Source: Proteromonas lacertae | Taxonomy: Eukaryota | NCBI GenBank assembly: GCA_002245135.1 | Contig: NGBS01000587.1 | Span: forward strand, 1-64,000 | DNA length: 64,000 bases | Direction: 5' to 3' | In this document: piece by piece, positions 4,114 to 50,085 of the stretch | How positions within the stretch are numbered: the stretch's first letter is position 1 | Layout: every line of letters begins with the position of its first letter | Translations under genes and position numbers: made by a program | The notes under the pieces: model-generated | Told to the model about the DNA's origin: nothing | The model's input: the letters and a program-made list of their open reading frames with translations, nothing else | The model's database searches: none

Positions 4114-6487
4114 ATGATAATATATAAGAGGATAAATATATTTCTGATAACATTTGTATTATTAGGAATGGTATATTCAGAGGATATTGGCTTTATATGT
4201 GAAGATCAGACTGATGTTTTAAAGACTGACATTGAAAGTTATATAGCGAAAGAAGGCAAAGGCTATGAATTGAAACCTGAAAATATTAAGATATTATCAA
4301 TACCAATAGATGTTGATTCTTTAAACTCCACATTAACCGAAATTGCCAAGAAGAATATTAGGTACATTTATGCGCATTTACCATCTTTTCCATTGGATAA
4401 GGTGAATATCATAGCTGCATCAAATGGAGTGACAATTTTTGTTCCCCAAAATGATTCAAGTCATCTTTGTCTTGAAAATGTAATATATGGATATGATAGA
4501 TGTCATTCAGCATATAGTTGTATGAATATATACTAATTTATATAATTATTAGATATTGATCATATTAAAGGTAGATATAGAATGAATATAATCATTGGTG
4601 AGAATAATGAATGTAATGTAAAGTTAGTAAAATATGTTTCTCAATTTGGTAGTCAATCATCATATTCATTTCTTGCTGATTATGATAAAGACATTTTAAA
4701 AGCTCATTTAGAAGCTGTTTCTGGTAATATGACATCAACAAATATGACATTGAGTATTGCTATATATAATATGTATGCAATTAATGAAGATATTATGACT
4801 ATATATAAAGATACATTTGACACTTTTGATGATAAGAAGTTGGTTAATTTCGTATTTGATGTTGCTCAACTTACTGCATATCAAGCTTATACTAATATAG
4901 ATGAGACAATAGAATTTGTAGGTGAGGAATTAAACAATGAAACAAGTCTAAAAACTGCATTAGATGATAATTTCGGTGTAGCAAATCATATTAATGGATA
5001 TACTAGTATAGAAATAGAATTGTATATTATAATTATAATTATGAATGTATAGTTATGGATTGTTAGAATTATTATCACAAAAATTGATTGAATTAGAAGG
5101 TGCTTCTGTTGAACAATTAAGATATGCATTATTCAATAAACAAGTAGATGCAAGTGGTTTATTAATAACAATGCTTCCAGATCATCGGGTTATTTCACCA
5201 TTATATTCAGCCTATTATGATAAAGTAACAGATACATCAAATCCAGAATGGAAATATGAAAAATTAGATATAGGAAATACAATGCCAACATCTCAAGTAT
5301 TTGGACAACCACTCAATGTAACTTGTGATTTATTCACATCTAATGATTTTATACCATTAGAAGGCTTCTTTATGGTTTTATCATTCTATGGAGGTAATAA
5401 TCCACGAGGTTATTATGAATCATTTACATTGAATGCTGCATTAGCTGCGATTAAAGATATTAATGATAATGGTGGATTATTAGAACGAGAAATAGTTCCT
5501 ATATTTATTGATGGTGCTTTAAGTGATAATGAATATATTACTTTATTGAATTTATACCATGAACAATTTGATATTTCTATATTCTATATATCATTGCAAA
5601 TAGCTGATGTAATACAAATTGATAAGTGTATATATATATAAACATATTTTATATAATCTAATAGTATTTAATCAGAAAGAAATATGGATTAATATTCAAA
5701 CAACAGGAGGTGAATTCTGTGAAACAAATATTATGACTGGTGCAATTCCTAATTCTGCATATTTTCAAAGATCTGTTTTTACTGTTTTAACAGAATATTC
5801 AAACGTGTTTGTTGTATATAGTAATGATCGACTTGGATTAGATACAAAAACAGCAATTGAAGAAGTTGAAAAATCCATAAAAAATCTGAATATTGTAAAA
5901 ACAGAGTTAATGGTTGGAACTAACGTAGTGAATGGTGAGAATGTATTGAGTAAAATAAATGATGCTTGTAATGAATATGAAAGTATATACATTTATAATA
6001 ATAATATAATGTTATTAGGTTGTATGATTGTTTTAGCTACAGAATTCGTCTATTTAAAACCATTCTATGTTGCTTATTTAAATTCACAAATGAGAAATGC
6101 CACAAGATATCCAATTATGTCATTTGCTTTAAATGAAGTTTTAATTGATGAAATTGTGAAAGAAACAAATAAATCAATGGAAGGTCATTATGTAATGGGT
6201 TATTATTTTGATTCAATCACTGATTCTGATGAAAAGATATATTTCAAACAAAATGTTACATCAATGTATAACGGTTATAACAATTTGAAATTTACATCAC
6301 AAATGGCTTTATCTTATAGTAATATTTATTTAATGAAGAATGCAATTGAATTAGTTTATACCGATAGTTATGATTCATTAAAATCTGTTTTTGGTAATAT
6401 CAAAGTTGTTGGACCAGGAGGTATATTACAATGGACAACTGATGGATTTGCTAGTGGAGCAATTAAACTAGGAATTGTATTAATATA

Positions 6488-6533
<46 letters not shown>

Positions 6534-9500
6534 TTATAGATAAAAAGTGATAATACAATTGGCATTCAAGATTCTTCCACTTATATTGAACCTACTCATG
6601 CATTTATTGATTTATCAAGACAATGTAGTTGGGATAATAGTGTTGAGATAACCAGAGAAATATATAAGATAGTATATCTGAATATATTTAATGATGCTTC
6701 TGATTTATATGCTTATTCCTATAATCAATACTTCAGTTTAGTCATAGCCATAATGAATGATGATTATAATGGCATTAATGGAAGATATTTAAAAGCAGTA
6801 AAGCCATTATTACATAGCATTGAAGAAATGGTTGAATATGTTAAAGAAGTGGGTAATGATCCTGAAGTATTAGCATTTATAGGAACTTCTACCAATGAAG
6901 AAAGAGAAGCAATTCATCCATATTTATTAGAATATAATAAATTATTATTTTCAGTATATGCTGTTGAAGGTGAACAAAGTTTACAGAATGTAATTCAGTT
7001 TGGAAGAATGCCACATCATTATATGAATAAAGTATTTGGCTATCATTATACTAAATATAAAGATTGTGTTGTTGTTGCTGAATATACAAAGTATATTATA
7101 TATTATATTGCTTTAATAGACAAAATGAGAAAATTGTAGATTATATAATGGCATTAGCAGGAGGAATTCAAATATTGAACTGTAAATCTAATTACACTAA
7201 TTCAACAGATGATATTGATGGATTTATAACAAAATTAGATGATGAATATCCAAATGGTGTAGCAATATACAGTTTGCTACATATGAATACAAGATATTTA
7301 TTGAGTGAATTATATGATCATAGTCTTAATAGCAGTAAATATCCAGTAACAATTTTAGATATTGTAGAACCAATGTTAAGCAAGTATTCAGGAGATCCAA
7401 AAGAGATTGAAGGACAATATTTTGTAGTTTCTTTTACCTATTTATATGATAGTGAGAGTAATATTGCTTGGAACAATTTCTTAAGAACTAAATATGGTGA
7501 ACCTTATTATTTATCTGTAGAAGTTTCCTATGCAATGTATTCAGCACTTCGATTCTTAGGAGCAGCAATAGAGAATTCAGGTTCAACAGATTCATCAACA
7601 GTAAGATTGGAGATGTATAGAACAACAATCGATTTACCATTAGGAGCAACAAAAGTAACAAGAAAGAATATGGCTGTTATTGGTTCATTTCTAATGCAAG
7701 TTCTACCTGATAGACAATTTAAAATAACTCTTAGTATTACAGCTTTAATAGATACTACTCAATATTCTGCATTATTGTCAAGTAATGGCAAACAATATGA
7801 ATGTGATTATTCAATAAGTAATGAAACTACTGAATCTGATTTATACAGATATGCATTGTGGATTAAATCTGATTCAGAAAATCTACAATTTATGTTGAGT
7901 TATTATCAAAATGTATTGAATTCAGATGGTGGTAATTCTGGAAGACCATATGTATATATATTATTTTTATTATATTCAAATAGTCTATGATAAAAGTATA
8001 TTGTGATGATGAAGAAGGATTAGAAAAATCATTAAAGGATGATACTATTTCATTTATAATAAGTCAATGTGGAAATTCAACCAATGCATTATATAATGAT
8101 GATTTAAAAGAAAAGGGGAAAGTAATGTTATCTACTCAGAATGAAGATACTGGTATTTGCTATAGTAATATCATTCAAGTCGGTTCATCTCCAGCTCAAA
8201 GAACAATTGCAATGATTCAATATTTAATTGATAGATATTCAACTCAGTTTGTATTATTTCTACCAAAAGGATTTGAAGATACAGCTGAATATAAACTACT
8301 AAAAGATTCAATTGAATCACAAAGTGCTGTTATTGAATATAAGGTTGTAGTTGATGGTAGTGATTTAGATCAAGCTAGTTTGAATCAAACAATTCGTGAT
8401 GGTTTAGCTTCTGTCAAAAGATATATGCCTTCTGGTGGTGTTATATTGAATTATTTAAAGGCAACAGAAGCAGATATTGTATTTCAGAAATATTTTGAAG
8501 TAATGTCAGTATATTATGAAGGAGCAACTGATACAACTGAAATGGCAAAGTCATATCCAATTGTTACTCCATATTTAAGAGTATATCAGGTATTACCATT
8601 ATATCTAAGAAGAGGACATTTGGCTAGAATCTATGGATTTGCCAATGAAGATACTAATCAAAAGATTTATACATTTAATAGAAATATACAAGGAGAAGGT
8701 GTTTTAACAGGTGAAGAAGCTGCAATATTAATGTTGTCTTTTGAAGCATTTATTTCTGTAGTTACAACAAAATCATCAAAATCATTCTTAGAATTAATTC
8801 AAACTATACCTCTATCAACATCATTTGGTGAGTTGAGAGTAGATACTGACAATTATTTATTACATCAAATGTATATAGTAACTACTGAAGGTGATGATGT
8901 TAAGATATTAACTGAATTGTATCAGGAATATCCAGCTAGAACTTACAGACAATGGTTTAATGTTTATTTAAGTTTTGATATATGTAATATCGTCACTTCT
9001 AATTATCATGAAGTAGTTAATCCAATTCCATTATTAATCATGATTCCATTAAATGGAGCTTATACAATGCATGGAACTGACATGGTATTATCATATTTAA
9101 CTACAATTGATTATCTTAATGATAAAGATAGAGTAAATAATAGAATATATTCACCAGTAGTTATAAATACTCAATTTGATTCAGCAGTTGCAATTGAATA
9201 TATAAATTTAGCAAGAAATGTATATAAGACAAGAATGATATTTGGTATTTACAGTTCTGAAATTCGAAGAGATGTTGAAGAAGTGTTAAGGAAAGAAGAA
9301 TTGTTATTATATTATCCAGTTGATTATGAAGGTTTGGAATGTAAAAGAAATATATATTATACTGGTATTCCATTTGGTTCTAAAACAGCATTTGTTCCAA
9401 TAGTAAGTCAAGATTATGGTTCTGCAGTATATATTGTATATACTGATACTTATATGAATCAAAAGATGGCTGCTTCTATTAGAGAGTTATTTGACGAAAG

Positions 9501-12500
9501 AGGTGTAACTGTAGTAAATAGTGTTGAAATACCATTAACAGGATATACAATGAAATCTATTTTGAATATCATAACATCTGAATTTAGTAGTGGTGCAATT
9601 ATATCTTTGTTAGATGGACAAACTACAATTGATTTTATGCAGGAATTATATGATGAAGGTTATACATCTACTACCTATCGTGTTTTTAATATGTATTTAA
9701 GACATATGGATGTGATGAATAACTTGGAGATATTGAATGGACATTATCATTGGCAATCTTTCTATGAAATAGCTGAAGATTTATTTAATGAGACAAATAC
9801 ATTACATAAAATATCCAAAAATACTTATACACATTATAATGAAATATCTGAATTAGTTCCATCATGTGTATTGTCAATGTTATTGAATCATTATGCTGCA
9901 AAGAGTATGAAATGGAATGATAGTGATCCAATTGGTTATTCATTTGATGATTTATTAAATGCTGTTCATAATACTGTTATTGAGGAATATCCACACCTTA
10001 AACCTTCAGTTAGTAATCATATTACATATTCATTTGCTATGTATCAAGTATTAGATAAACAAATAATTAGACTCTATCAATACATAAGTCCAGGTGCAAG
10101 TAATCCATATCAAACTAGGCTTGATTGGGAAGGTTCTTATTACTGTTTATTTAATAATGGATTAGAGATAGAGAAGGAAAGACTTCATACTTATGTTGTT
10201 GGTTTGTTATTCTCAATTAGTGGATCATTGAGAGATTTTGAATATACTGCTGTAGAAGCTTCAATAGCAGTTGTTAATGAAGTTAATAGAAAAGGTGGAA
10301 TTAATGGTAAATATTTGGATTATAAAATATATGATACAGAAAGTACAGCTGAAGGTGGTAGGAAAGCTGCATTAAAGGCAAAAAATGAATGTGTAGATGT
10401 ATTTATTGGATGTTTTTTAAATGGCTGTAGATTAAGTGCAACAGATGCATTAGCACCATATAATAAGACAATTTGGTATCCTGGTATTTATGATGGTCAA
10501 GAATGTAATAGAAGTACTTATTATACTGGATTAATCCCAAATCAATTTATGGATCAAATGACTAGTTATATAACTGGAAAAAACTATAAGCAAATCTTGT
10601 ATTTAGTTGGAGATACAGGTACTTATGCAGCATTTATATACAATATTACTCAAGTCAAAATTGGTAATTCATTCCAGCTGTATAGTACTTATGGTGTTAC
10701 ATCTTTGGAGATTCAAGAGATGGTTGTTGACATAGTGACAAAAATGCCAGAAGGTGGTACAATCATTTCGACATTTTCTGAAGCTGAATTTAGAGTATTT
10801 TTGCCTTCACTAGAATCAAATATATTTCTAGAAAATGCATATCAATTAATAGTATTAAATATTGATTCAACAGTTGTAAATTCAATTGATCATAATGGTG
10901 TTATTGATATAATAATAGTTGGATCATATTTTGATAATTATATCAAAGACAATAATTTCTATCAAGCTGTATTTAATGAAACTGGCAGAACTTATAACAC
11001 TATGTTTGCTGAATCAGCAAGTATTGCTATTAACTTATGGGCTGCTGGTGTTGCTAAATTAAACTTATCCAGAGATGAAAAAATAGATGAAGCTGCATTA
11101 GAAAAAGCATTATTTAATACAGAAGTTGAATCTGGAAGTGGTAAAGTAAAAATGAATACTAACCATCATACATCATTATACGCATTAATGGCAAGATGGG
11201 TTAAGAATACTCATAATCTTGAGATTGTATTTTCACAATCACTATATCAAGATCCAATGGCTTGGAATTGGGATATTCCTGAAACAAATGGTTTAGTTTG
11301 TGATTATAGTAATCCAGATATTGGCGCTAAAAACAAAGTTATTGCTTTGAATATATTAGTTGCAATATCTCAAAGTGGAAATCATAAAGATACTGACACT
11401 GGTTTATCAAGTGTTGTTGAATTAGCCGTTTCAGATATTAATTCAAAAACAGGTGGTTTGTTGAATAAGAAGTTATACTTGACAACAGTTGATATTGCTT
11501 CAAATGATGAAATATGCAAGACAATAATTGAATCAACATTGAAACAAAAGGATTATGAAGTTATATTCACAACAGCATCGAATAAGTGTTTGAATTATAT
11601 TTTGAATTTACCTGAAACACGTTTTATTCCTGTATTCTTTATTGGATTTGCACAAGGTGAAATATGTGTTAAACAAATTATATATTCTTCAAGAGAACCA
11701 AGCATATTAGATAGAGCAATCGATATTTATTTACAATATGATGATGAATTAACAATGAGATATGTTACAGTTGGAAATGATGAGTTCTATTCTGTAGAAG
11801 GAATGAAATATGCTGAGAAATATATTGAATATAGAGGTGGAACTTGTGATAATGATAAAGTAACAAATTTCAAAATTGATAATACTGATTTTAAGAATAT
11901 AGTAACTTATATTAAAAATACATTTCCAAATGGTGTAACAATCTTATTCTTTGGTACAGTATCCAATCATATTGCATTTGATAAAGAATTAGCTAATAAT
12001 GGATTATCTATTGAGAAATACCCAATTATATCATATGCAACAGGTGAAAATATGATTGGAACTGGTGTAAGAGAATTCTTTACATTACAAACATACTTTA
12101 CATCAATCAATACACAAGTTAGTAAAGATTTTGTAGATATGGTATATGCTTATACAAAAGAAACAATCAGTGAATTAATGGAAGATACATTTGCTGTATT
12201 TAACATTTGGGCAGAAAGTGTTACAGCTGTTAGTTCTACAAATAGTACAATCTTAATGCCTGGAATTTATAATCGTCCTTTTAACTCACCTGAAGGAATG
12301 ATTCATATAAATACAAATAATTATTTATCTCATTATTTATTACTTGGTAAATTAAACAAAAATGGTGATGGAATTGATATTTATTACCAATCAAGTGTTC
12401 CAATCACACCAAACCCATATAAGAAGTTTGTGAATGATGGTAATTATATATGTGACTTTACAAAAGAGAATGTTGGATCTAAAAAGAAGGATTTAACTGT

Positions 12501-15500
12501 AACTGTTGGTGTATTTGTTTCACAAGATGGAAAAAACAAAGATACAGAAAGAGCAATGTTTTATGGTATTATGCAAGCAATCAGAGAAATCAATGAAAAT
12601 GGTGGAGTTTTAGGTAGAAAAATACTAGTAGAAACAGCTGATCCTAAATCAATATTAGAGAATTATATTAAACATGCTGAACATTTTGGTGAATTAGATG
12701 AAATTAAAGCTGTTTTTGGTGCTGGTAGATATGAAGATTTGATTTTATTAGCTGATATATTTAGTCAATATAATAAACCCTATTTCTATCCTGGTTTATC
12801 AGCAGGTAATATTTGTAATGGTTATACATTCGTTACTCAATTAACAACCAATCAAATTTCAATTGCCGTTAAGAAATATATTGCTGAGAAGTTTAGTGAT
12901 TATGTTATTATATACAGTGAAAAAGATGACTATTCTGTATTGTTGAGTAAATCAATATATTATACATTATCAGATATGGATGTGAATATATATGGTCCAG
13001 TTGATATGCATAATACAACTGAATTAAATAATATTATTTCAAATATTAAAATAGAAAGTACAGCAATACTTGTAGCTGTAGGTGTAGATGATAATGAAGC
13101 TATATTCAGTTATTTATGTGAAAATGGATTAACTGGTACTACAGGTAATATATATGCAAGTACATTGAATATAAATGTAATTAAGAAGATTGATAGTGTT
13201 TGTATTAAAGGTGCATATACATTTAGTAGTTTTATAAAAGAGATGGGTGAAGAGACTTCTGATAGAATGACATATCAATCATTTTCTAAAAATTTTATTG
13301 ACTTATTAAAGAATTCATATGGTAATTTTGTTGTAGTGACTCCAGCAACTGAAGCTTCATATACAGCTGTTAAATTATGGGCTGAAATTGTACAAAATAC
13401 TTACTCATTTGAAGCTGATCAGATTAGAAATAGTTTATATGGTTATTCATTTTCATCTCCAGCTGGTGCTTTGGAAGTTAATACTAATGGTTTTACTAAT
13501 AGAGTTGTGTATTTAGCTCAAGTTGGTGATAATGATGCATTATCGATTATTGATTATTCAAGTCAACCAGAAGAAGCATTAGCATTTGATACAGCATTCC
13601 CAGAAAATAAAGAAGTTACTTGTGATTTAACAGTAAGTGAAATAAGACAAAATGTTAGTTCAATAAAAGTGATATTCTTGCATGAAGCTAATTTTAATGA
13701 AAGGGAAATACCTGTTTTATTAGAAGAAGATGCAAGAGTGAAAGATTTGAATTATAATAAAGTAAATGGTTATCAAGTTGTACCTGTTTTTATATTTGGT
13801 TCTAGTGAAGCTGAATTTGATGAAAAACTAAAGAAATATGAAAATGACTCGAGTGTTGTTTCATTTATTGGTTGTAGAAGTATAGGATGTAGAAATGCAG
13901 CTTTAAAAATAGCTGAAAAACAAAAGAAATTATTCTTAAATCTAGGTTCAACAGAAGGTAATTATTGTAGTGAAAATATAATTAATTTTGGTACAACTGC
14001 TTATCAAAAGATTTCTATATCAGCAGATTATTGTCATGATAATGGAATAACGAAATTTTACTTTGTTGGTGATAATTCTCAAGAAAGTGAAGCTGAATAT
14101 GAGATGGCAAGTGCTTATGTAAAAGAGAAATATGGTTTTAATATTCGAAGTACTTTAATAGAAATTGATCCAATTACAGAAGATGAAGTTAAAAGAACAA
14201 TTATTAGAGTTACAACAGTGTCTGAAGATGATGAAATAGCAATATTCTTTGCTTTAAAAGATGAAAAGGCCAAAACATTTTTAACATATTTAAAGAATGA
14301 CAATCTCTTATCAAGATCAATGAAATTGATATTTATCAGTTATAGTTATTATGATTATGTTGGATATGATTTATCGTCATTTGATAGTAGTTATGTAGCA
14401 ATTAGTTTCCACCCAATTCTCACAAGTTCATTAGCTCAATCATTCATATCAGATACACAAAAGAATATTGGTTATAATCAGGAAATCACTGAAGAAATAG
14501 AAAGTGTAAAAATAGCAATCGATTTATGGAAAACAGCAATGGCTAGTAGTTACACTGATTCTAGTCAAAATATTCCTCCATTGAATTATATAAGTATAAA
14601 TATGATTGGTCAAGATATATCAATTCCAAGTGGAACATTAAAAATAGAAACAAATGGTTATGCAATTCGAAGTGTTTATTTATTAGAAATCAATCAGAAT
14701 GGTGAATTAAACCAATTATATCCATACAGAGGTGGTGCTACAATCAATAAAGAAGCTAGACCATATGTAAATTTACCTTCAAAATGTAAATTTGGTAAAA
14801 GTGATCAATATTTTGAATATTCAGTTGTGTTAGAAGCATTATACTTTGTATTTATGGGTATTGCTTCTGTTTGTAGTGTTGCATCCTTAATATTTACAAT
14901 TACTCATCAAAATCAAAGAATTATTAGAGCTTTTGGTAGAGCTTATTCTTATACAATGGCTGTAGTTTTATTAGCTTGTTCATTGTCAGCTATTCCAATG
15001 GGTTTACCTCCTTCAGATAGTAATAACATCTGTATGGCAAGACCAATAGCTTTAGCAATCTGTGTAAAAGCATTATTAGGTGTATTATTGTCTAAATCAA
15101 CAAAGATTTATAATCGTACAAAACGAAAGGCTAATATGGAATTGGCAAAGACAAGAATATCGTTAATTAGAGTGTTTAGCTTTATGTTTTCATTTGTATT
15201 AGTTGAAATAGTGATTGTAGTTTTATGGGATTTAATTGATCCGAATGAGTATCAAGAAACATACAGTCAGAAATATAGTACATACTTTGAAGATATTTAC
15301 ATTAGAGAATGTTCAACTTCCACTGCTTTTACTGTAATTGAATTAGTTACAGATGGATTAATATGTGTTTATTTCTTAGTGATTAGTTTCAAATCAAGAA
15401 ATTCTGCAAATAGATTTAACGATTCAATCGGTTTGTTTATTTCATCCTGTTTATTAACAGTATTAGGAGCAGTGTTAGTTGTATTAGATTTCAATATCAG

Positions 15501-15783
15501 TAGTGAACCAGATAGTGTTTTGATATTCAGAGGTATTGGCGTTCAGATCATGGTTGTTATACTTTGTATAACTCAATTTGGAATAAAGATGGTGAATTTA
15601 TTCTTAAATGATGATGCTGGTCAAGAATCACAAAGTGGAAGTGCTTGTCAACAAGGAAATAATGCTTCAACATTCTCTACAAGCAAAATGTCACAGTCAA
15701 ATAGTGTATTTCAATCTACTACAATGCATACTCGAACTTATACCACTAGAATGACCACTTTTACAACTCATGAACAAAAGTAA
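4114..15783 (+). CDS. Giant class C GPCR-like receptor 1: signal peptide + 9 tandem UrtA/AmiC-type periplasmic-binding (Venus flytrap) domains + 7TM, ~3802 aa
   Basis: Seven GT-AG introns (4520-4552, 5022-5052, 5628-5664, 5983-6018, 6477-6539, 7091-7119, 7952-7983) join the ORFs in frame (11409 nt CDS). Repeated motifs INxxGGxxG, YYPVDYEGLECKRNIYYTG and WYPGIYDGQEC..YTGLIPNQ. The 7TM has class C hallmarks C..R..L, LLSKSTKIY, VLWDLIDP, REC and SRN...FNDS. Confidence 0.85.
6485..6533 (+). repeat. (AAT)n microsatellite inside intron 5 of receptor 1
   Basis: Visible AAT tandem run that expands this intron to 63 nt. Confidence 0.95.
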
Positions 15784-17547: not shown

Positions 17548-17647
17548 ATGACAAATAAAGATAGTATGGATGTATAAGTAAATTATTTAATTTAATTCGT
17601 TTAATTTGCTTTGTTTATGAATATACTAACATATATTTAATTAATTA

Positions 17648-18448: not shown

Positions 18449-18603
18449 ATTTTAATAAAAATATATTCGTTTCAATTTTTCATTTTTCTTAAATACAATG
18501 CAATTCTTATTCTTTTTTCAATAATATAAACAAAATTTTATTAATAATAGTTAATATTATAATAATTAAGAAAAAAGTATGAATATTATATTATTCATCT
18601 AAT

Positions 18604-23570: not shown

Positions 23571-26500
23571 ATGACTTTGTTCGTTACACCTTCAAATACA
23601 TTATTTTTTATTTTAATTATTCTACTGCTTATTAGTAAGACATTATGTACTGATATAAAAGTATGGATATTTATATCAAAGAGGGGACATCTCAGATCCA
23701 TCAGTAGATGTATTTAGTAAGGCAATATTTGATGGTTTTACACAACAAATAACAAGTAAGGACTATCCAGAGAATTTTCTATTCACAAATTTCTCTTGTA
23801 ATACAAGAGGTGATGATTTAACAGTAGTTTTGAACAATTTCAAATCAGAAGGAATAAAACATATTTTTTCGCCCATCATATTTAATAATTTTACGCTTGT
23901 AAACCAAAGATTTAAAGAATATGGAATGATTCTATGGTCTTCAACAGCACAACTACTTGAATCATGCCATAGCAATATTATATATTATGGATCAGAAAGA
24001 AAGCTGTTTGAACAATGTATATACATTATTCTCCAATTTATATTATAGATATTGTATATTCATCAGCAAATAAAAAGAATTTTGTTGTTTTGTACCAAGA
24101 AGACCATCCATATGCGAATATTATTGAATATGTGGAAGAATTATTAAAAATGGTAGGTTCTACATTACTACCTTTAGAATCATGGAAAAAAGGGGAAACA
24201 ATATCATCAACAAAGAATCAAGAGATATTGACAAATATAACTTACTATTCTACTGATTGTGATAATTTAGAAATTTTAATTTTGTTAGAACATGACATTT
24301 ATGATGATATTGTAACTAATGGTGGTGGATTTACATGTGTTCCAACGATAATATCAATTGATGGTTATGATTTTAACTATTATAATGATATAACTGTAAA
24401 TCCACCATCAGCACCTATACCAGTTTACTTTTTGTTTAATTTTTATGAAGATATTGATTATTTATTGACAGTCAGTAATCCTGAGACAGATCCGCTAGTT
24501 TTTAAATTGTATAATTGATACTTAATATATTTTATAGATCATTTTTATTTGACATATTTCACAAAGGATATACAAATATTGGAGGTGATTCAATATTCAA
24601 TTTATTATATTCATTATATGATAATAAAATTGAATCTTATGGAAAAGATACATTACTTTTACATACAAACGTAGTTCCATCTATATCTTTATATGCACAT
24701 GAAGGCCAAATATTTTATCCTCCATTTGTTAAAATGGTTAAAACAGAAATACCATATGATGAATATATGTTATATTTAGAGATGTATGGAAAACCAGATA
24801 TTCTACAATGTACATTCAATAGTAAATATGTAAAAGTAAAAGAAAGTTATGGAGTTGTTTTGCTTCATTATTTAAGTGGTGATTTTTTAAATAAAGGCTT
24901 TTATTTGAGACAACAGTTTATTGTAGATACAGAGATTCAAAGTTTAAGAGATAGTGACAAATCAGTATATAAATATATGTTTATTGTTATTCCATAGTCT
25001 AATTTGAATGTTCATTTATATCCAATAATAGTAGATGCTGGTAGAGATAAGGATGAAATAGTGGAATATTTAAAGAAGTATTATGATAAAGGATTATTCA
25101 ATTATATTTTCACAACATTAAGAATTGAAGATAGAGATGAAATATTGAAAATGATGCTTGATAAAGGAATGAAAGATATACAAATGCTTGCTGTAATGTA
25201 CAATACAGGATTAGAATGTAATGAACATATTGTTTATACTGGTATTTCAATGAAATCAAAATTAGATTTAGCTTATTTTACTTTTCTTCGTAATTCCGTC
25301 AATCCTGTAGTTATTATTGGTAGCAATCTTAAATATGGCAAATCAACATCAGATTTTGTTAGACAGAAACTATTAGATAGTGGAATAACAAATATAGTTA
25401 CATATATAATGAAAGAACCGTCACCAGCTGAAGGAAATACTGCAGTTTCATTTATGAGATCTACTATTTATCCCAGTATAAATATAAATATTTTTTAATG
25501 TCATAGTTAATCCTGAAGATGAAGTAGAACCAACTTTGCCTCCTCAATGTTGGATGGAGCCATGGCTTCCTGAATGCTTGGTAGATACAGACTGTGATCC
25601 TTCTGGATATACAATTTTATGTTTAGAAGAAGAATATCAAGAAGTATTTTTGCATGCATACAAGAATCAAGATTTAAGATTATGCAAATATCCTATCATA
25701 TTGAGCGAATATGATGATTCATTATTAGAAATGGATAGTATCTATTCTGACAACGTATTTGCTATACTTTATTGTGTATAGTATCCAGATGTTGTGTTTG
25801 GTTTTGTTCTATATACAGTTGTCATGCCACCAGATCATATTCAAAGTTCAATCACACATTTTCTTAGAAAAGGAATAATAGGGTTGTATAGTTATATTTC
25901 ATATTATGTAATCCAATTACTCAAGGAGGTATACTGTTAATTATTTCATATGTAATAGTGTATAATATCAGCAATGTCAATTCAATTCAAGTTTGTTCAA
26001 GAATATCTTATAGGAACATCAATTAAAACAGAAATTGGACCATATAGAATTATTAACTCTGGATATGCATCTTTCCGTATTTCTATTTCAAATGTATTAA
26101 TAATTCTAATTCAATTTACTTATATAATATATAGATTGATTGCTCTTTCCAAATGAATACTTATGTTAAAAAAGCTGCAGGTGCTTACCAAACACCTGTT
26201 TTTTTGATAGAAGAGAATAAATATTGTGATTATAAGAATTATAGTATACATTTACATTATAATGATTATAGTCTATAATAATGATATTAAATCATCAAAA
26301 GAACAATATAAATTGATTGTATTACTTCCTACAGAAAGTGAATATAAAACTAGATTTGCTGAATTAACTGAAGTGATTGAATTAGTCTGTACAACAGTAA
26401 ATACCTACAATCAAATATTAGATGGAGAATTAGAAGCAATATATCCAAGATATTCAAAATCAATATCCGAAATAAAAGAAAGGATAATCAACTATGGAAA

Positions 26501-29500
26501 AGATGAAAATGTAATAGGATTTACAGGTGTTTTAATGTATTTGAATATTGATATATTATTTTTGAATAGAAAAAGAGAAAGGGATATATTAAATCCTATT
26601 TTAGTAGAGTATGAAAAAATCCTTTTGCAGTTCTTTCCATTTGAAGGAGATTCTTGTGAAGAGAATACTATAACTATATCCTATTTTTTATCAATTTGAT
26701 TTGTGTAATAGATATTCTTAATTTTCATTTACAATACAAGAACATATGACAATAGTCTATACTATCTAATTGATATTATAACAACTTCTACACCAAGATG
26801 TGGTGTATTTTATCAAAACGATGAAATATCCGTTCATTTGTTTAATGCAACAAAATATTATATTGAGAATGTGGTATTAAATAAAGAATGTGAATATCGT
26901 GAAATTGTTAAAGATGTAGTATTTGACGATAATATAGTAGGTAATGAAGCGTTATGTGAGACTGATGTATCAATTTTACTAATAGCTGGAGATTTACTAT
27001 TCAATTTTATATCTAAAAAGATATGTACTGCTCCTAAGTTTTATATTTATAATGGTTCTCCACGAATATTTAATAATCCATTAATTTATGATAGTAATAT
27101 GCTTGAAGGCTATTTTGATGGTACAATAGTAATAGGTTCTTTTTTCCCATTCATAGAGAATAAGAGAAGTGAAGTATTAAAGAATGAAGTTGAAACAATT
27201 ATTGGTAATGCGAATGAAGTGTTGTTTGAAGATTTTGTTTCACTGTATATTTCAATATTATATCAATAATTTAAATATATATAGATATGAGTTGTTAAAA
27301 ACATTTTCAGAAGCAGCAAAATCGAAATCATCATTATCAAGAGATTTAATAATGTCATACTTTAAAGATTTGAAGTTAAATTCACCAGAATTTGATACAG
27401 GTAAAGTTCTTGATTCAAGATATTTTATGAAAGGATTTTATATAGCTACATCGAAATACAATTGGGATGGTTATACTTTTGAAGAGTATATTAGTTATCC
27501 AACTGCATTATACACATCAGGATATGATTTGGTTGTATAATTAATATTTTGCTTATATTCATTATTAATAGATGAATGATAGCCAAATAGAATGCAGTTT
27601 CTTTATAGATGAAAGAAGTTTAGATTATTATACTTTATTTCCAATCAATATTGGCGTATTGTATAATAATGATACAAATAAAGGAATTGATAGTACAACA
27701 GTTCTTATAAACTGGTTTTTAGAATATCTAAGAATGAATAAATACTTTGAATCTAGAAAAATCGTATATATAATCATTGATTAATACATTGTAATAGCAA
27801 ATAAAAGTTCTTAAATGTCCAACTGATAGTGTTTCATTAAATGTTATTAAAGATTATCTGTTAGACAAAGAAGTGACACTATTCATTGGAGATTGTAATA
27901 AAGATGTAGTTGATATGTTTTCTACTGATAATCTATTACAAAATACTGTTTTATTAGATGTTGGTATAAATCCAGGAGAAATCTGTAAAAAGAATACTTT
28001 CTTTATTAATCCATCTCCATACCAATATATTTCTTCACTGTTGAACTATCTTTTAACAACTTATGGTACATCTCTTGCATTTATTTATGATGATGATCCT
28101 ATTAATAATATTTACAATAGAATAATATTAGATGCAATTGAATCATTACGAATTAATGTTATAATTAAAGAAATGGTATTATCTTCCTCTTCAGATGGTG
28201 ATAATTCATTAATTATGGAAAATTTTATTGACAATATATTGTATTCTGCTACAGAGAATGAATATGTAATAAACACATTATCCAGTAAGAATTTAAAGAC
28301 TTTTATTGATATTTATGCAAAGAGAATGGCTTTACTGAAAGTTTTTCCTATATTTTACATTGATAGTTCTATTCTTGACTTTGATAAAAGTAAAACAGAT
28401 GGATTTTATTTGATATCTTATGAAATCAATTCATCTTCAGAAGAAGAGTTTATTTATCAATCAATTAATGAAATACTAGGAAATGGTTATAAAATAAATG
28501 GAAAAGAAATTAGTTATTTAGTTGCATTTTACTACTTAGCTGTAAGTTTAAAATCAACAAAAATATTAACAAGAGATACTGTAATAAATAGTATGTATAA
28601 CTCACATTCTGATGAGTTGTTTGGACATTTAGAAATGGTGAATGATAATACTTTAACTCGTTCAATAATACTGAACAAAATCACATCTTCTGATGGAATA
28701 TTGTTTGAAAAATATATAATGAAATCATCAAATGAAGGTGAAGTATGGAGAATTCATTCATACTCCAACAAAGATATATACTTGTAATTGGAAAGAATAT
28801 GCAAGTGAAAGATTTGAAAGATCAGTTATGAAAGTAGGAATTTTATTATCTTTTTCAGGTAGTTACAGTAAAAAAGACAGACAATCATTAGTTGCTTTTT
28901 TAATTGGCATTTATTATTATAATATAGAAATGAAAGGTATAAGAGGTTTAATAATTGTACCAACAATCTATGATTTAAAATCTGATGTGAATAATGTAGT
29001 TCCATTATTAGAATTATTCAATTCGAATGGAATAAATAGTGTAATGGGATTGTCAAATTCAGAAATGAGATTAGCTGCTATTGTTACATTAGAAAGAAAT
29101 AATATGTTGTTATTTTATACACATGATTATGAAGGACTTGAATGTAAAAGGAATATTATCTATGTTGGAATTCCATTTACTAGTTACAGTAGTTATAGAT
29201 ATTATATACAAAGAGAATATATTGAAACAAATAGAAAGATAGGAATTGTATATACTGATTTAGAGTATTATAAAAAGTCAGCAGAGATAGTGAAAGCAGA
29301 TTTAGAAGCACTTGGATTAACAATTTCTACAATGTTGAGATTGAATAAAGATATTACAGATATGAAACCAATTATAGAAAGTATTAATTTACACCTATTA
29401 GGAAATGGAATAATTGTGTCATTAATCGGAGGAGATTCAAAGTATTTGTTTTATGAAACTGCTTATAATAGTTATTTATCACCTCCAACTTATTACTTTT

Positions 29501-32500
29501 ATGATTTTGATATTGATCAAAGTGTTTTGAAGACTGAATATGCAAAATATTTGACTGGCCATTATATTGTTACAGGTGCTATTGTGGAAGATAATACAAT
29601 AACTAAAATGATAAATAAATACACAAATAATTATTTCCCTTATATTAAATATTTTACCAATGATATGTATTATTCTACAATAGGAATAATGTTATGGAGA
29701 GAATCGATAGAAAGAAAGAAATTATATACAACTGAATTTATATTAGAAGCAATAAATGATTTATCATTTTTATCACCATTTGGTATTATTAATACTTCTA
29801 CAAATCATCATATATCTAGTTTAAGATTAATTGCTCATATTGTCAGATCAAAGGAAGGTAGCATGTCAATATAGAATGATTTATTTATTAAATTCTGGAA
29901 ATAGAGTTCCAAGTCCATATTCTACAAAATATCTTGGTGAAAAAGTATTAATATGTGATTGGAGAAGTGATGATGAAATAAAAGAAGAGTTATCATTTAA
30001 TGTATTAATTATACTCTCTCCAAAAGAAGAATCATCTTTTTTATCAATAATAGCTGTTACAGTTGCTGTAATTAATAATATTAATAGTGATAATGGTGTG
30101 TTAGGATATAAATTAAATCCAATATTCATTAACTATAAAGATGGAGATATAACTTTAAAAACAAGAATTGAAAAAACTATGATAGAAGATGATAAGAATA
30201 TATTATACATTGGTTGTACAACAACATTCTGTGTAAACACTATCTTACCATTACTATCACAATATAAAAGATTACTTCTTTATCCAGTCAAATTTCAAGC
30301 AGAAATGTGTAATCCATTTATACTATCAACTGGTCCAATTCCTAATCAAATTGCTGATTCAGCTAATACATTTATTTCGAGTTTATCGAATAGAAATAAT
30401 ATTGTATTACTCTATTCAGATAATACGAAATGGAATATATTTAAGAATATATTTGAATATGGTTTAGAAAGTAAATTTCATGTTGTATTAGAGAAAGAGT
30501 TTAATGATCATTCTTTTTTCTCTACTTCGATGGTTAATACAATCATTTCACTAGTTAGTAAAGGTGGATTGATAGTTAGCTTTTTGAGCGAAAAACCCCT
30601 AATCAATTTGCTCAAGTTTCTGGATTTGATGATTGTTGATAAAAAGCAGATACAATATGATTTATTTAATTTCAGAGTTCCTCCATCAATCATAAGTTCA
30701 AATCTACCAGATTTAGAATTTCCTTATTACTATATATCAGGTTTGGATGCTCCTGTTAAGAATAATTCTTTTATTATTAAGATAGAGAATATATTGAAAG
30801 GTAATTTTGGTATTGTAGATATAACAGATGATAGTGTATCTGTCGCATATATACTTTATGGAATGAAAAGAATAATAAATGAAGCTGGATCTCTGTCATT
30901 AGATACATTGAAAAATTACTTATATTCTTACAAGTTGATAGATGATGATTTTACAAAATTTGATTATAGTAATTATTTGGTAAGAGATATTTACATTTAT
31001 AGTTATAGTGGAAGAGAAAAGACTGTATTAAGAACATTTCTAACAACACAACCACAACCATATAATTGGAAAATTATTAAGAATTATGGTAAAGTATGTG
31101 ATGTAACACTTATTAATGAAAATAATAACAATCCAGTAACAGAAGTTGGTATAATTACAATTTTGCTTATAACATCAACTACTGGAGCAAATAGTCTAGA
31201 TTTCAGAGGAGTTTCTGAAGTATTTCAAGAAACAATAAAAATCAGTTAATACAGATGGTGGAATAAGAGATAAAAAGATCGTTTATGATGTATTAGATGA
31301 TAGTTCTGATGATACTATTTGTTCAGAATTAATCAAAACTAAATTACAAGATGATCCTACTATCTCTGCGATATTTACAACTGGAAGTCAGATGTGTGTT
31401 GATTTGGTATTGAAAACTTTAAATGATTATAAAATCAAGTTATATCATATTGGTGTATTCGGAGGAGAGAGTTGTGAATCAAGTGTATTTCACTTTGGAA
31501 TTGAACCTACAGTATTAGAGGTTGTTATTGAAAGATCAATCAACAGAGGATATGATAATTTTGCTATTATAGCTACTTCAGATTCAAATCATTTGAAATT
31601 CTCGAATTATGCTGAAAGATACATTAAGTATTTTTATGCAAATTTGTTAATAACAACCACTGTTGATATAGGATTGAATGATTGTACTGCAATGGCACAG
31701 AATATTGTTGCAAAATTACCTTCTGGAAAATCAGTTTTATTGTTGTTTGTTAATGCAAATATTCATATACTATTATCTCAAGCATTAAAGAAAGCAGGAA
31801 TAACAGATGAACAATATAGGATGTATTCATTTTCGACATATGAGAATGTAGCACAAGAAGATGATATATTACCATTCTATTCATATGCACATTATTTTAA
31901 CACAATAGAAAGTGATGCAAATACAGAATTTGTTAATAATTTAGCAATTAGTTTACCAAATGGTGTAATTCCAAATGCATACCATGAATCAATGCATCAA
32001 GCAGTAATGTTTTGGTTAGTTATGGTGTTTTCCTATGGTGATGCTGATATAAAAGATCTTACAAACGAATATTATGATGTTTCTTGTATTACAACAACTG
32101 GTAATATGAAAATAGGTAAGAATAATATAGTGAATAGAAAACTGTATGTTGGTTATTATGATGGAAATAGTGAAGGAAGAATCTCAATTGATTCGATTGA
32201 AGATTATTATGAACCAATAGCCTGGAAACAGTTTATTAACGATGGAATTTATATGTGTAATTTAGTAGATGCATCAATAGGACAGAAATACAAGTACCCA
32301 GTTGTAACAATTGGAGTAATGGCATCTTTAACTGGTGGTGATGCAGCAAGGGGAAGAGAATTAGCTTGTAGTGTGTTATTAGCAGCTAGAATGATTAATA
32401 AAGCTGGTGGTTTAATTGGTAGTAGATTGGTAGTTGATATTATAAATACAGAATCAAACTTTGAAATATTAGATCATGTATCTAGTTCAACAGCTGCGAT

Positions 32501-35500
32501 TGCTGAATTAAGTGCTGTATTTGGAGCAACATGGGACGATGAATATAAAATATTAATTCCATATTTCAATAGAGCGCAGAAACTGTTTTTCTTTTCAGGA
32601 ATTGCTGTAGGTGAAGGATGCGAACCATATGGTGTTCTTGCTCAAGATACCAGTTTACAGTTAATATCAATATCAAAAAGTACATTAGTAAGTGATATAC
32701 AGAATGAATATATACTGATTTATTCTGCTCATAGTTTCAGTACAGGAATGTTACGATTATTTAGTAATTTACTTGATGAAATTAGTGTTCATTATGAAAA
32801 ATACGAATATACATCAACTAATAATGAAATATTCACAGAAATAACAGAAAAGTATCCAGATGGTGCAAAAATAATAGATATTGGTTCAACTTGGTATTGC
32901 TTAGAATTGTCGATACAAGCTACAAAAGCAGGAATGGTATATCCGAAATATCCATTATATCATTATTTTGCTGATGAATATTTAATTAATGGAAATGAAA
33001 AGTATTTCGAAGGACATATATTTTATGCATCATGGTTTTCTATAATAGGAAAAATGAAATCTAAAGAATATTCAAACCAACGAAATATGTATAATACATA
33101 TACAGATTATTATAAAGATTCATTAATAGTAAGTGCTGCAGCTGAGTCTATGTATACTTCTGTGATGCTTTGGGCAAAAGGAGTGAAAGAATCTTTCAGT
33201 TTTGAATCAACAAAAGTAAGAAAAGGAATGACAGGAATAAAATTTGTTGCTGGTTCTAGTTTTATTAGATTAGAATCTGATAATATGATTTCAAGAAAAT
33301 TCTATATTGCTCAAGTGATAAATGGGGTTTTGACAGTTGTAGAAAGTCCAACTGGAATGATATATCCATACCCATTTTCATATTGGCTTGTTGAGAATCA
33401 AGGTAAAACTTGTAATTGGGATTTGAAGGATATAATAGTTGTTAATAAAAACATTATAAGAGTAGGATTAGTATTAGAATCAAATCATCCAGTTAATGCA
33501 GAAATATATAATTCATGGTTATCTTTTACAGATACACTAAATGAAGTAAATGAAAATGGTGGAATAAACGGAATGGAAGTATATGATGTTACAAAAATCG
33601 TTCCCTTAGATGATATAGAAAATGTGACAGTTGCAATGATAGAAAGTAATACTGTTAATGCAATATTTGGTTGTATTTCAAAAAAATGTAGAGATATAGT
33701 AAGCGAAGTCTGTGAAAAGAGGAAAATGATGTTCTTTTTTATTGGAAGAAGTGAAGGTGATTATTTCTCAAAGTACACAATTACTGTTTCTTCAACAATC
33801 ATTCAAAAATTAGAAGTATCAATGGAATATACAACAAAACTATTCACAAATTATTACATTATTATTGATAATCAATACTAATATCTTTTTTTTAAAATAT
33901 ATTTATATGTTTGATCCCTTAATATGTGAATTGATCTATATTTTAATTCGATATACAAATATTTAGATTCATATCCAAATATTGAGTTAGTAGGTTATAC
34001 ATTATTAGATACTAGAAGTACATGCAATGTTGTTTTAAGGAACTTATATTCCTCTATGAATGTTTTTGATCATATGATATGTATATATATATATATAACT
34101 ATTATTATATATATGTGAAAAATAGTAATTACTGCTTTAACTGGTAAGTCATTTGAGACTTGCATAGATTATTATGTAGAAAAGAGTTTTAGTAAACATA
34201 GATTCCTATATCTTTTAATCTCCTATGACCATTATGATTATGAAAGAATTGATCTAAACAGAATAGTTGGTAGTTATATTCCAATAGAATATCAACAAAA
34301 TACTACTTATTATAGCAATTATGCATTTAGACAAAGGACAAGTAATATTTTAAAACCATCATATTTTATTACACCAATTTATGAAGCTTGTAATACAGCT
34401 GTTAATATATACATTAATGCAGTTACAAAAGCAGCAAGTTATGGGAGTAGCAACAATACAAATGCTTGGCCAGAGAACGAATATATTCGACTAAGTGTTC
34501 CAGATATTCAATACAATTCAGCAGGTGGAGTTGTGAAGATGACAATTAATAATTTTGCTAATAGACCAATGTTCTTCATGGAAATAGAAATGAATAATTT
34601 TGTTCAACTAAACCCACCACTTGGAGAAACAAAATCATATAATCCTTATCCATTTGTTAATTATTTTCCAAAAGAAAGTGAAAATACTAAAGAAACCAGT
34701 ATCATCCCATTAAATGAAGTAGAATCTTGGGTTTCAATTAGTTTATGTATTGCAAGTATAATCATAACAATTGTGTGTTTATTCTTTACCATAAAATACA
34801 GAGAAAAGAGAATTATTAAATGTTGTTCAGCATTATACTATTATTGCTTATTATTTACTCTAGTAATAGCAGCAGGAAGTGTTGTTACATTAACAGTAGC
34901 TCCAACCACATCTTCATTATTGTGTTATTTTAGGATTAATGCTTGTTTATTTTCAGTTATTTCTGTATCATCAATGTTGTTTACCAAAGCTGCTAAGTAC
35001 AATTTTAGTAGAAGAAGAAAAATCCATAAAGTATATATATAATTGTTATGTTTATAGATTCGAATTTCCTTTTTAAGTATTATAAGAAATTTTATTGTTG
35101 CTTATATTGTTCCACTTACTGTTTCTGTTATATATCAGGTATTGTCAAAGCCATCTTATTCGTTAAGATTAAACATTGATAAATCCAATTTTCTAGTCAA
35201 TTATTACTATGAAGAATGTACTCAGAATGATACATTTAAGTATATAATATATATCTATAGATTAATTATTTCACTAGTATCATACTAATGATATATGTAG
35301 TAATGTTTCTTATTTATGGTTGTTATTTATCTTTTCATTCAAGAAAAAAAGCTGTGGAATTTGGTGATTCATATACTTTGTTAATAACATACCTTGTAGA
35401 ATATATCTTTTTTAAATATATATTCAATTGTCCTTAATGAATATAATATTTATGTTATTGATATTTTTCGTATTGGAATATGTTATAGATGCTTCCCCAG

Positions 35501-35801
35501 ATTCATTGTTGTTATTCAGAGGTATTGGATATCCTGCGGTTATTATTACAATTACATTAATTCAATTTGTTCCAAAAATAGTGATTATATTTACGAATGA
35601 AGAAGCATTAGATACAACTGATAGTAAATTTGATCTGTCAGTTACGGCTAGTGAAACACATTTATATCCTTTTTTTCTATAAATATATGATAATTATATG
35701 ATTCTTTAACCACATTTAAATCTCATTCTATCTCACACTCTATGAGTAGATCAATTTCTCAACAACATAGTGTTATGAGAAAAACTAGTAATATTAGATG
35801 A
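23571..35801 (+). CDS. Giant class C GPCR-like receptor 2 (9 UrtA/AmiC-type domains + 7TM); many introns incl. four U12-type; four apparent +1 frameshifts
   Basis: Signal peptide MTLFVTPSNTLFFILIILLLISKTLC; nine domains colinear with receptor 1 (domain 5 YEGLECKRNIIYVGIPF); 7TM with LCYFR..MLFTKAAK, SRKKAVEFGDS, PDSLLLFRGIG; Ser-rich tail ends at TGA 35799-35801. Frameshifts near 23660, 28750, 29866 and 31240 mean either assembly error or a young pseudogene. Confidence 0.75.
26676..26732 (+). other. U12-type AT-AC intron (57 nt) in receptor 2
   Basis: 5' ATATCCTA, branch TTCTTAAT (26715-26722), 3' AC; removal deletes an in-frame stop and joins ORF 26226 to the frame of ORF 26838. Confidence 0.8.
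33881..33931 (+). other. U12-type AT-AT intron (51 nt) in receptor 2
   Basis: 5' ATATCTTT interrupts the apparent TAA; branch TCCCTTAAT; the two nearer frame-compatible acceptors create stops; no GT-AG alternative seen. Confidence 0.7.
35403..35446 (+). other. U12-type AT-AA intron (44 nt) in TM6 of receptor 2
   Basis: 5' ATATCTTT, branch TCCTTAAT (35431-35438); removal gives a gap-free alignment with receptor 1 between F(N/G)DS and VL(D/E). Confidence 0.75.
35664..35719 (+). other. U12-type intron (56 nt, AT-AA; alternative AC at 35713) in the tail of receptor 2
   Basis: Perfect 5' ATATCCTT, branch TTCTTTAAC; removal opens a Ser-rich tail SHSISHSMSRSISQQ like that of receptor 1. Confidence 0.7.
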
Positions 35802-49923: not shown

Positions 49924-50085
49924 TTTTTCAATTATAAAAAAAATAGCCAGTATCTTAAAATTGGTGGGTTGTATTTTTTAGTGAAAATGTATATTTTGGT
50001 TGTATTTTTTCTCGTACCCCATGAATTGTGATTGGACAATTTATTAAACACTGAATTAAACACTTAACAACATTTACTTATTCAA

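What the first reader, a model, noticed from the sequence alone, without database searches (positions are those of the whole stretch)
4114..15783. Giant class C GPCR-like receptor with nine tandem bacterial UrtA/AmiC-type flytrap domains
Seen: after removing seven tiny introns, one ~3802-aa protein has a signal peptide, nine ~380-400 aa repeats and a C-terminal 7TM with a Ser/Thr tail. Known: class C GPCRs (mGluR, GABA-B, CaSR) carry one flytrap domain per chain. These repeats instead match bacterial urea/amide-binding UrtA/FmdD/AmiC proteins (YYPVDYEGLECKRNIYYTG; C-terminal PMAWNWDIPETNGLVCDYSNPDIGAK, close to UrtA ends as I recall them). Inference: a laterally acquired solute-binding domain was amplified ninefold and fused to a class C 7TM, giving a multi-ligand nutrient (urea/amide/amino acid) sensor or adhesion-like receptor. 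I know of no described receptor with this architecture.
Basis: partly seen in the sequence, partly recalled or inferred. Interest (0 to 1): 0.9.

Follow-up and report, generated by a model that had tools for sequence, protein, structure and literature searches.

The report
Nine-flytrap receptor from bacterial urea binder
A protist gene encodes a predicted 3,802-residue surface receptor in which nine copies of a bacterial urea-binding fold sit on a GABA-B-like seven-helix membrane domain; all nine copies have lost the urea pocket, so it likely senses something else through one or two of them, while a distant relative keeps intact urea sites and may be a urea-sensing receptor.

Summary
Observation confirmed. 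Seven GT-AG introns give one 3,802-aa frame: signal peptide, nine UrtA-type repeats, a 7tm_3 domain (E 6e-29) and a Ser/Thr tail. The last exon alone carries about six repeats plus the 7TM. Models match cyanobacterial UrtA (Z 48) and GABA-B receptors.

No repeat keeps the urea pocket (at most 3 of 9 residues). Pocket positions are conserved only in repeat 5 (family-wide) and repeat 8 (close orthologues), so nine ligands is unlikely.

The gene is not a one-off. A nine-repeat paralogue lies at 23.6-35.7 kb, and 22 of 150 listed hits carry two or more repeats plus a 7TM. They include Capsaspora CAOG_05347 and unnamed P0022 (nine repeats, five with all essential urea residues). Fusion and amplification therefore look old, not recent in this lineage.

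'Peripla_BP + 7tm_3' is listed in a 2014 survey, and the scan earlier noted a three-flytrap mollusc receptor on other DNA. Ten paper searches found no description of this tandem UrtA family. mRNA, dimer, ligand and G-protein coupling are untested. Verdict: new variant of class C GPCR.

The parts
4114..15783 (+). Gene A, whole coding span, 8 exons, 3,802 aa predicted
4114..4179 (+). Predicted signal peptide (aa 1-22)
   Evidence: hydrophobic segment aa 1-20; cleavage site inferred by eye
4180..5347 (+). Repeat 1 (aa 23-390), most decayed; spans introns 1 and 2
   Evidence: 38.8 bits with family profile, 0.3 with bacterial profile
5351..6647 (+). Repeat 2 (aa 392-778); spans introns 3-5
6648..7828 (+). 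Repeat 3 (aa 779-1162); spans intron 6
7829..9003 (+). Repeat 4 (aa 1163-1543); spans intron 7
9013..10164 (+). Repeat 5 (aa 1547-1930); N-lobe pocket residues Ser, Tyr, Asp (for Gln), Glu conserved across paralogues; best candidate ligand site
10183..11319 (+). Repeat 6 (aa 1937-2315); clearest cyanobacterial-type UrtA tail; pocket not conserved
11332..12474 (+). Repeat 7 (aa 2320-2700); pocket not conserved
12487..13644 (+). Repeat 8 (aa 2705-3090); rebuilt pocket conserved among the three closest orthologues only
13651..14808 (+). Repeat 9 (aa 3093-3478), membrane-proximal, followed by a short stalk strand
14818..15609 (+). Class C seven-helix domain (aa 3482-3745) with Cys3553, Lys3574, Cys3646, Asp3683
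15610..15783 (+). Cytoplasmic tail, 57 aa with 22 Ser/Thr, and stop codon
4520..4552 (+). Intron 1 (33 nt)
5022..5052 (+). Intron 2 (31 nt)
5628..5664 (+). Intron 3 (37 nt)
5983..6018 (+). Intron 4 (36 nt, in frame, stop-free; least certain)
6477..6539 (+). Intron 5 (63 nt, holds an AAT run)
7091..7119 (+). Intron 6 (29 nt)
7952..7983 (+). Intron 7 (32 nt)
23571..35683 (+). Gene B, nine-repeat plus 7TM paralogue with many small introns and about five single-base frame breaks (assembly errors or pseudogene)

Best explanation
Gene A encodes a predicted class C-type receptor with nine UrtA-fold domains on a GABA-B-like seven-helix domain, and it likely senses a small polar solute other than urea at repeat 5 (perhaps also repeat 8) and likely passes the signal down a stiff chain of domains to the membrane. 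Shown: the architecture, the fold, the loss of the urea pocket in all nine repeats, and repeat-by-repeat conservation between paralogues. Predicted by models: neighbouring repeats pack in a defined way through the old bacterial C-terminal tail, which forms a beta-hairpin running into the next domain; repeat 9 joins the 7TM by a short stalk strand beside the second-loop beta-hairpin, with no nine-cysteine domain. Inferred: closure of repeat 5 would bend or twist the rod, most other repeats would act as spacers and relays, the change would break the TM3 Lys-TM6 Asp lock (probably in a dimer, as in known class C receptors), and output would go to a G protein or through phosphorylation of the Ser/Thr tail. 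The ancestor likely bound urea at most repeats, as P0022 still appears able to.
For: 7tm_3 above cut-off. Best solved 7TM relatives are GABA-B and mGlu receptors. The repeat 8-repeat 9-7TM model has pLDDT 89.8, pTM 0.81, seven helices, stalk strand and loop hairpin; its top Foldseek hits are GABA-B receptors, and repeat 8 aligns to cyanobacterial UrtA over 380 residues, Z 48.2, rmsd 2.5. The repeat 5-7 model has pLDDT 88.1, pTM 0.81 with structured linkers. Cys3553, Arg3556 and Lys3574 are at least 90% invariant among 41 sequences; Asp3683 aligns with the FNE/FND acid of relatives. Repeat 5 pocket positions: Ser in 7 of 9, Tyr 8 of 9, Asp 7 of 9, Glu 9 of 9; mean identity 0.44 against 0.24 background, p 0.010. 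Repeat 8 among three closest orthologues: 0.85 against 0.53, p 0.009. For 8 of 9 repeats of gene A the best match in gene B is the same-numbered repeat. P0022 repeats 2, 3, 5, 6, 7 and P0047 repeat 2 keep all 5 essential urea residues.
Against: The two pocket p-values come from 10 tests and do not survive correction (about 0.1). The Tyr and Glu of repeat 5 lie in a motif that may be structural. The C-lobe half of the repeat 5 pocket is variable. Repeat 5 is four domains from the membrane, and no relay over that distance is known in a class C receptor. pTM reports model confidence, not stiffness. The TM7 Pro of the 'PK' motif is Ile in gene A. No G-protein gene was seen among the window ORFs examined, and no genome is held.
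Confidence: 0.5

Rival explanations
1. The ectodomain is a ligand-less structural or adhesive rod that contacts other cells, host surface or particles, and the 7TM anchors it or reports mechanical load.
For: None of 162 domains of the AT-rich family keeps 4 or 5 of the 5 essential urea residues, and 103 keep none. Pockets of repeats 6, 7 and 9 are no more conserved than background. The family is large and fast-evolving. The ectodomain has 26 N-glycosylation sequons.
Against: No adhesion-GPCR hallmark (GPS/GAIN, 7tm_2) was found. The repeat 5 pocket is conserved across paralogues, repeat order is kept, and 7TM activation residues are kept.
Confidence: 0.25
2. A multi-ligand nutrient sensor in which most of the nine repeats each bind a different amide, amino acid or related solute.
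For: All modelled repeats keep the full two-lobed fold. Each repeat has a different pocket. Bacterial BvgS-family kinases carry 1-5 flytraps and are proposed to integrate several signals (PMC4352136).
Against: Pocket positions in repeats 6, 7 and 9 vary as much as or more than background even among the three closest orthologues. Repeats 1-4 could not be tested the same way because few full-length relatives exist.
Confidence: 0.15
3. A G-protein-independent capture or uptake receptor: the repeats concentrate a solute or cargo at the surface, and the 7TM and Ser/Thr tail drive internalisation.
For: The domain descends from an ABC-importer binding protein. The tail has 22 Ser/Thr in 57 residues. 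The same repeats are fused to a different output, a glutaminase, in P0159.
Against: Class C lock residues are conserved. No importer partner was seen in the window ORFs examined.
Confidence: 0.07
4. The long protein is a gene-model artefact, and the region makes several separate proteins.
For: No RNA evidence is available. Repeats 1-4 depend on seven predicted introns.
Against: Introns fall inside repeats and restore continuous profile matches. There is no second signal peptide. About six repeats plus the 7TM lie in one exon. P0022 (nine repeats plus 7TM) and P0043 (signal-like N-terminus plus nine repeats) are single database proteins.
Confidence: 0.03

Closest known systems
GABA-B receptor (class C GPCR; e.g. 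PDB 7c7s, 9jr0)
   Same: 7tm_3 domain, type I flytrap joined to the 7TM by a short stalk without a nine-cysteine domain, second-loop beta-hairpin, TM3 Lys and TM6 acid.
   Different: One flytrap per chain, of ANF_receptor type, binding GABA; here nine UrtA-type domains. Dimer and G-protein coupling are untested here.
Cyanobacterial urea ABC-transporter binding protein UrtA (PDB 8hic, 7s6e, 7s6f; TIGR03407) and Pseudomonas AmiC
   Same: Fold over 380 residues including the C-terminal tail with its Cys.
   Different: Single bacterial domain serving an importer. Gene A repeats 5-9 score 76-120 bits against a cut-off of 492.75 and lack the urea pocket defined in PMC10392092.
Capsaspora owczarzaki CAOG_05347 (XP_004347032.2)
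   Same: Tandem Peripla_BP_5/UrtA-type repeats plus 7tm_3; annotated in UniRef as a family 3 GPCR-domain protein.
   Different: Three repeats, not nine; an opisthokont; no functional study found.
Non-metazoan class C GPCRs with bacterial binding domains (Bmp, OpuAC, SBP_bac_1, Peripla_BP; Krishnan 2012 PMC3251606, de Mendoza 2014 PMC3971589, Seppala 2016 PMC5168858)
   Same: Bacterial-type solute-binding domain fused to 7tm_3; 'Peripla_BP//7tm_3' is listed in de Mendoza's supplementary figure.
   Different: No tandem array, UrtA ancestry or urea pocket is mentioned in the parts read; the gut-fungal domains are type II and sugar-binding-like.
BvgS-family sensor kinases (PMC4352136)
   Same: Several flytrap domains in tandem (1-5) that act together across a membrane, with unequal roles among domains.
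   Different: Bacterial, single transmembrane segment and histidine kinase output; no 7TM.
Mollusc three-flytrap class C receptor (earlier scan note e1-9560608, unchecked)
   Same: Tandem flytraps on a class C 7TM.

Membership tests
Class C GPCR | 7tm_3 domain above curated cut-off with seven helices | tested here: met
   101.9 bits against 33.5; seven helices in model; GABA-B and mGlu best hits
Class C GPCR | N-terminal type I flytrap domain | tested here: met
   Nine copies, of UrtA type rather than ANF type
Class C GPCR | TM3 Lys / TM6 acid lock and TM3-loop 2 cysteine pair (motif roles recalled, not from a call) | tested here: met
   Lys3574, Asp3683, Cys3553, Cys3646 align with GABA-B R1 9jr0 and with relatives
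Class C GPCR | TM7 'PK' motif (recalled) | tested here: inconclusive
   Gene A has IK, gene B, P0022 and P0083 have PK
Class C GPCR (mGlu, CaSR, TAS1R branch) | Nine-cysteine domain NCD3G | tested here: not met
   No NCD3G hit; also absent in GABA-B and non-metazoan members
Class C GPCR | Obligate dimer | not tested
Class C GPCR | Ligand-driven G-protein activation | not testable with these tools
   No genome held; needs experiment
UrtA urea-binding protein (TIGR03407) | Score above family cut-off | tested here: not met
   Repeats 5-9 score 76-120 bits, pieces of repeats 2-4 37 or less, cut-off 492.75
UrtA urea-binding protein (TIGR03407) | Pocket Trp120, Ser122, Gln144, Tyr190, Asn246 (essential) plus Tyr141, Glu146, Phe192, Ser274 | tested here: not met
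   0-3 of 9 and 0-1 of 5 essential per repeat in gene A; 49 of 60 bacterial controls keep 5 of 5
UrtA urea-binding protein (TIGR03407) | Fold including the cyanobacterial-type C-terminal tail | tested here: met
   Z 48.2, rmsd 2.5, 380 aligned; tail Cys in 9 of 9 repeats
Adhesion GPCR | GPS/GAIN domain and 7tm_2 | tested here: not met
   Pfam scan of the last exon gives four families, none of them these
BvgS-family sensor kinase | Histidine kinase and phosphorelay domains | tested here: not met
   C-terminus is 7tm_3 plus a 57-aa tail

The most novel reading that the evidence does not exclude
An undescribed, old family of class C receptors was built once from a cyanobacterial-type UrtA, spread across distant eukaryotes (Capsaspora, a SAR-like protist and unnamed others) and grew into arrays of up to nine or more flytraps. 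Members such as P0022 are urea-sensing GPCRs that count urea at five or more sites per chain, and in this lineage the nine-domain rod was retuned to new ligands and expanded into a large chemosensory gene family.
Probability: 0.35. Interest if true: 0.9.

Novelty: new variant of a known kind. Interest (0 to 1): 0.72.

Why it matters
Class C receptors are understood as one flytrap per chain acting in a dimer. A chain of nine raises a testable question: can binding far from the membrane be relayed through serial flytraps, or do repeats serve as spacers? The family offers a natural series, from relatives with intact urea pockets (P0022, P0047) to fully rebuilt ones (this gene), and a cultured, annotated member (Capsaspora CAOG_05347). 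It is also a case where the bacterial source of a GPCR ectodomain is still recognisable (53-56% identity between P0022 repeats and bacterial UrtA), and it points to a possible urea-sensing GPCR, a scaffold of interest for biosensors.

Tried and rejected
Own genome not held, so G-alpha genes and family size could not be checked. Sequencing runs: no RNA holder listed. A word-index search with repeats 8-9 plus 7TM among 603-1,922-aa proteins gave one weak hit only, though the full HMMER search found many. The metagenome scan with P0022 kept 80 of 422 loci, and in those 80 the profile found only single-domain proteins. Donor assignment by tree: the mixture-model tree put all 17 repeats from 7TM- or tandem-type proteins on one side of a branch (SH-aLRT 87) next to tail-bearing UrtA, but the AU test did not reject grouping the AT-rich repeats with tail-less bacterial proteins (p 0.63; the constrained tree was 3.8 log units better), so the donor of gene A's repeats is not fixed by tree. 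The 20-sequence 7TM tree did not show the UrtA-bearing receptors as one clade: P0022 joined an ANF-bearing receptor, P0148. Lineage: my first guess, Blastocystis, was not supported; the window's SAM synthetase has Placidida, Suigetsumonas, a ciliate and Blastocystis among named hits at 73-75% but fell outside the named Blastocystis clade. Urea binding by gene A was rejected on pocket residues. Earlier-finding look-ups by sequence and by place were empty.
Full report
Observation. The window is a 27% GC eukaryotic contig with small introns. From ATG 4114 to TAA 15783, removal of seven GT..AG introns gives 3,802 codons without a stop. Six introns are required for the frame; the seventh (5983-6018) is in frame and supported by its form and a 10-bit gain in profile score. 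The last exon is one 2,599-codon frame carrying most of repeat 4, repeats 5-9 and the 7TM, so the core architecture needs no splicing assumption. Pfam finds Peripla_BP_5 and 7tm_3 (E 6.1e-29). All nine repeats match a profile made only from database relatives, well above shuffles; repeat 1 fails a bacteria-only profile. The repeats are 10-22% identical to one another, so the amplification is old.

What the repeats are. The closest solved structures are cyanobacterial UrtA (8hic, 7s6e, 7s6f), then a Caldicellulosiruptor urea binder and AmiC. A confident model of repeats 8-9 and the 7TM (pLDDT 89.8, pTM 0.81) aligns repeat 8 to UrtA 7s6e over 380 residues (Z 48.2, rmsd 2.5). The match includes a C-terminal tail ending in Cys-Asp-Trp. 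This tail is present in 81 of 81 full-length domains from the 80 metagenome loci closest to P0022 and in 0 of 71 full-length domains from the GTDB loci; the named tail-bearing proteins are cyanobacterial (Synechococcus, Alkalinema, Prochlorococcus). In the eukaryotic arrays this tail has become the linker: all nine repeats of gene A end in its Cys, as do 140 of 145 complete domains of AT-rich relatives. A model of repeats 5-7 (pLDDT 88.1, pTM 0.81) shows it as a beta-hairpin leading into the next domain.

Ligand pocket. Wang et al. 2023 (PMC10392092, passages read) name nine pocket residues in UrtA, five of them essential. Gene A's repeats keep 0-3 of 9 and 0-1 of 5, and score far below the UrtA family cut-off. 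Across 162 domains of the AT-rich family none keeps 4 or 5 of the essential residues, against 49 of 60 bacterial controls with all 5. Urea binding by the known mechanism is therefore unlikely. Conservation of pocket positions within same-position repeats picks out repeat 5 across nine paralogues (0.44 against 0.24, p 0.010) and repeat 8 among three close orthologues (0.85 against 0.53, p 0.009). The other eight of the ten tests were not significant, including all for repeats 6, 7 and 9, and the two positive ones do not survive correction. Repeats 1-4 were not tested this way.

The 7TM. Its best solved relatives by sequence are Drosophila GABA-B R1 (E 1.9e-9), mGlu7/4/8 and GABA-B R2, and GABA-B receptors head the fold search. 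The model shows seven helices, a stalk strand and a second-loop hairpin. Cys3553, Arg3556 and Lys3574 are nearly invariant in 41 sequences, Asp3683 keeps the TM6 acid, and the TM7 Pro is replaced. The roles of these motifs are recalled knowledge.

A family, not a single gene. A paralogue lies at 23571-35683 with nine repeats and a 7TM; 8 of 9 repeats of gene A match best to the same-numbered repeat of gene B, so the nine-unit array predates the duplication. Gene B has about five single-base frame breaks, mostly at homopolymer runs. A search of 1.84 billion representatives gave 894 hits at E 0.001 or better; of the 150 listed, 36 have three or more repeats and 22 have two or more plus a 7TM (the counting profiles were built from these hits, and Pfam confirmed Peripla_BP plus 7tm_3 in all eight such proteins among the 20 scanned, one of them below the 7tm_3 cut-off). 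Of the 36, 33 have an AT-biased amino-acid make-up like gene A's; those looked up are unnamed Logan proteins. Many look cut at introns, so repeat numbers are lower bounds. Three differ: P0083 is Capsaspora owczarzaki CAOG_05347 (three repeats), P0047 has three, and P0022 has nine (N-terminus incomplete), with repeats 2, 3, 5, 6 and 7 keeping all five essential urea residues. P0159 has the same repeats ahead of a glutaminase. That P0022, P0047, P0065 and P0159 are eukaryotic is inferred from architecture.

Origin. Descent from bacterial UrtA is clear. One old fusion shared by distant eukaryotes is the simplest reading, given the shared tail-as-linker design, a degenerate membrane-proximal repeat in each, and 7TMs that find one another in the search. 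Trees are compatible with this but do not prove it: the AU test cannot exclude another donor for the long-branched AT-rich repeats, and the 7TM tree does not unite the UrtA-bearing receptors. The host is a protist of uncertain, probably SAR-type placement; one gene did not place it within named Blastocystis.

Mechanism. Most likely (0.5) a surface sensor: a rod of nine flytrap folds in which repeat 5, perhaps also repeat 8, binds a small polar solute other than urea, and the change is relayed through structured linkers to repeat 9, the stalk and the 7TM lock, probably in a dimer. Architecture, fold and pocket loss are shown; packing is predicted; ligand, relay, dimer and output are inferred. 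Rivals are a ligand-less adhesive or structural rod (0.25), a true multi-ligand sensor (0.15), a capture and uptake receptor (0.07) and a gene-model artefact (0.03).

Comparison with what is known. Bacterial binding domains on class C 7TMs are known in protists and fungi. Krishnan 2012 (PMC3251606; passages and one section read) lists Bmp, OpuAC, SBP_bac_1 and others, with N-termini up to 1,667 residues, which matches the Capsaspora protein's 7TM start and is probably that protein (inference), but names no UrtA-type or tandem domain in what I read. De Mendoza 2014 (PMC3971589; passages and part 1 of 2 of the supplementary figure text) lists 'Peripla_BP//7tm_3'. Seppala 2016 (PMC5168858; passages) reports type II binding domains on gut-fungal class C receptors. 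Tandem flytraps are known in BvgS-family kinases (PMC4352136; passages), and an unchecked scan note reports three in a mollusc class C receptor. An Entamoeba flytrap protein lacks a 7TM (PMC12965686; passages). Two Blastocystis genome papers hold no G-protein terms (PMC5608401, PMC12129017; term counts and passages). Ten library searches found no description of tandem UrtA-type class C receptors; the library lacks most subscription journals.

Verdict. A real gene and a new variant of class C GPCR. The nine-fold array and its UrtA ancestry appear undescribed, but the fusion type is catalogued and the urea-sensor idea fails for this gene. The strongest new lead is the wider family, with intact urea pockets in P0022 and a testable member in Capsaspora. 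Interest 0.72.

Noticed in passing
window 23571-35683 (+): Nine-repeat plus 7TM paralogue of gene A with a signal-like N-terminus, many 27-45 nt introns and single-base frame breaks near 23660, 26690, 28765, 29835 and 31240; assembly errors or a pseudogene.
   Followed up: partly
P0022 (unnamed Logan protein, 3,745 aa): Nine UrtA repeats plus 7tm_3 in one protein; five repeats keep all essential urea residues, 53-56% identical to bacterial UrtA. Candidate urea-sensing GPCR.
   Followed up: partly
P0159 / P0217 (cluster of 46 members): Tandem UrtA repeats followed by a Cys-rich stretch, a likely single membrane helix and a glutaminase domain: a possible urea-regulated receptor enzyme.
   Followed up: no
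window 17631-23064 and 49937-55374: Inverted duplication, 98.5% identical over 5.4 kb, holding an ABCB/MDR-type transporter and a TylF-family methyltransferase; the second transporter copy is in three frames.
   Followed up: no
window 191-1258 (-): DUF659 (transposase-associated, recalled) ORF, probably a hAT-type element remnant.
   Followed up: no
window 36367-40275 (+), 43888-44637 (-), 40653-41735 (+): Full-size ABCG/PDR-type transporter, MeaB GTPase, and a weak PEPCK-like match.
   Followed up: no
window 48382-49506 (+): SAM synthetase with an 88% unnamed relative and named hits at 73-75% from Placidida, Suigetsumonas, a ciliate and Blastocystis; outside the named Blastocystis clade in a one-gene tree.
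   Followed up: partly
P0056, P0064, P0099: Proteins with one UrtA-like domain at each end flanking an NTPase or HEAT-repeat region in the two scanned.
   Followed up: no
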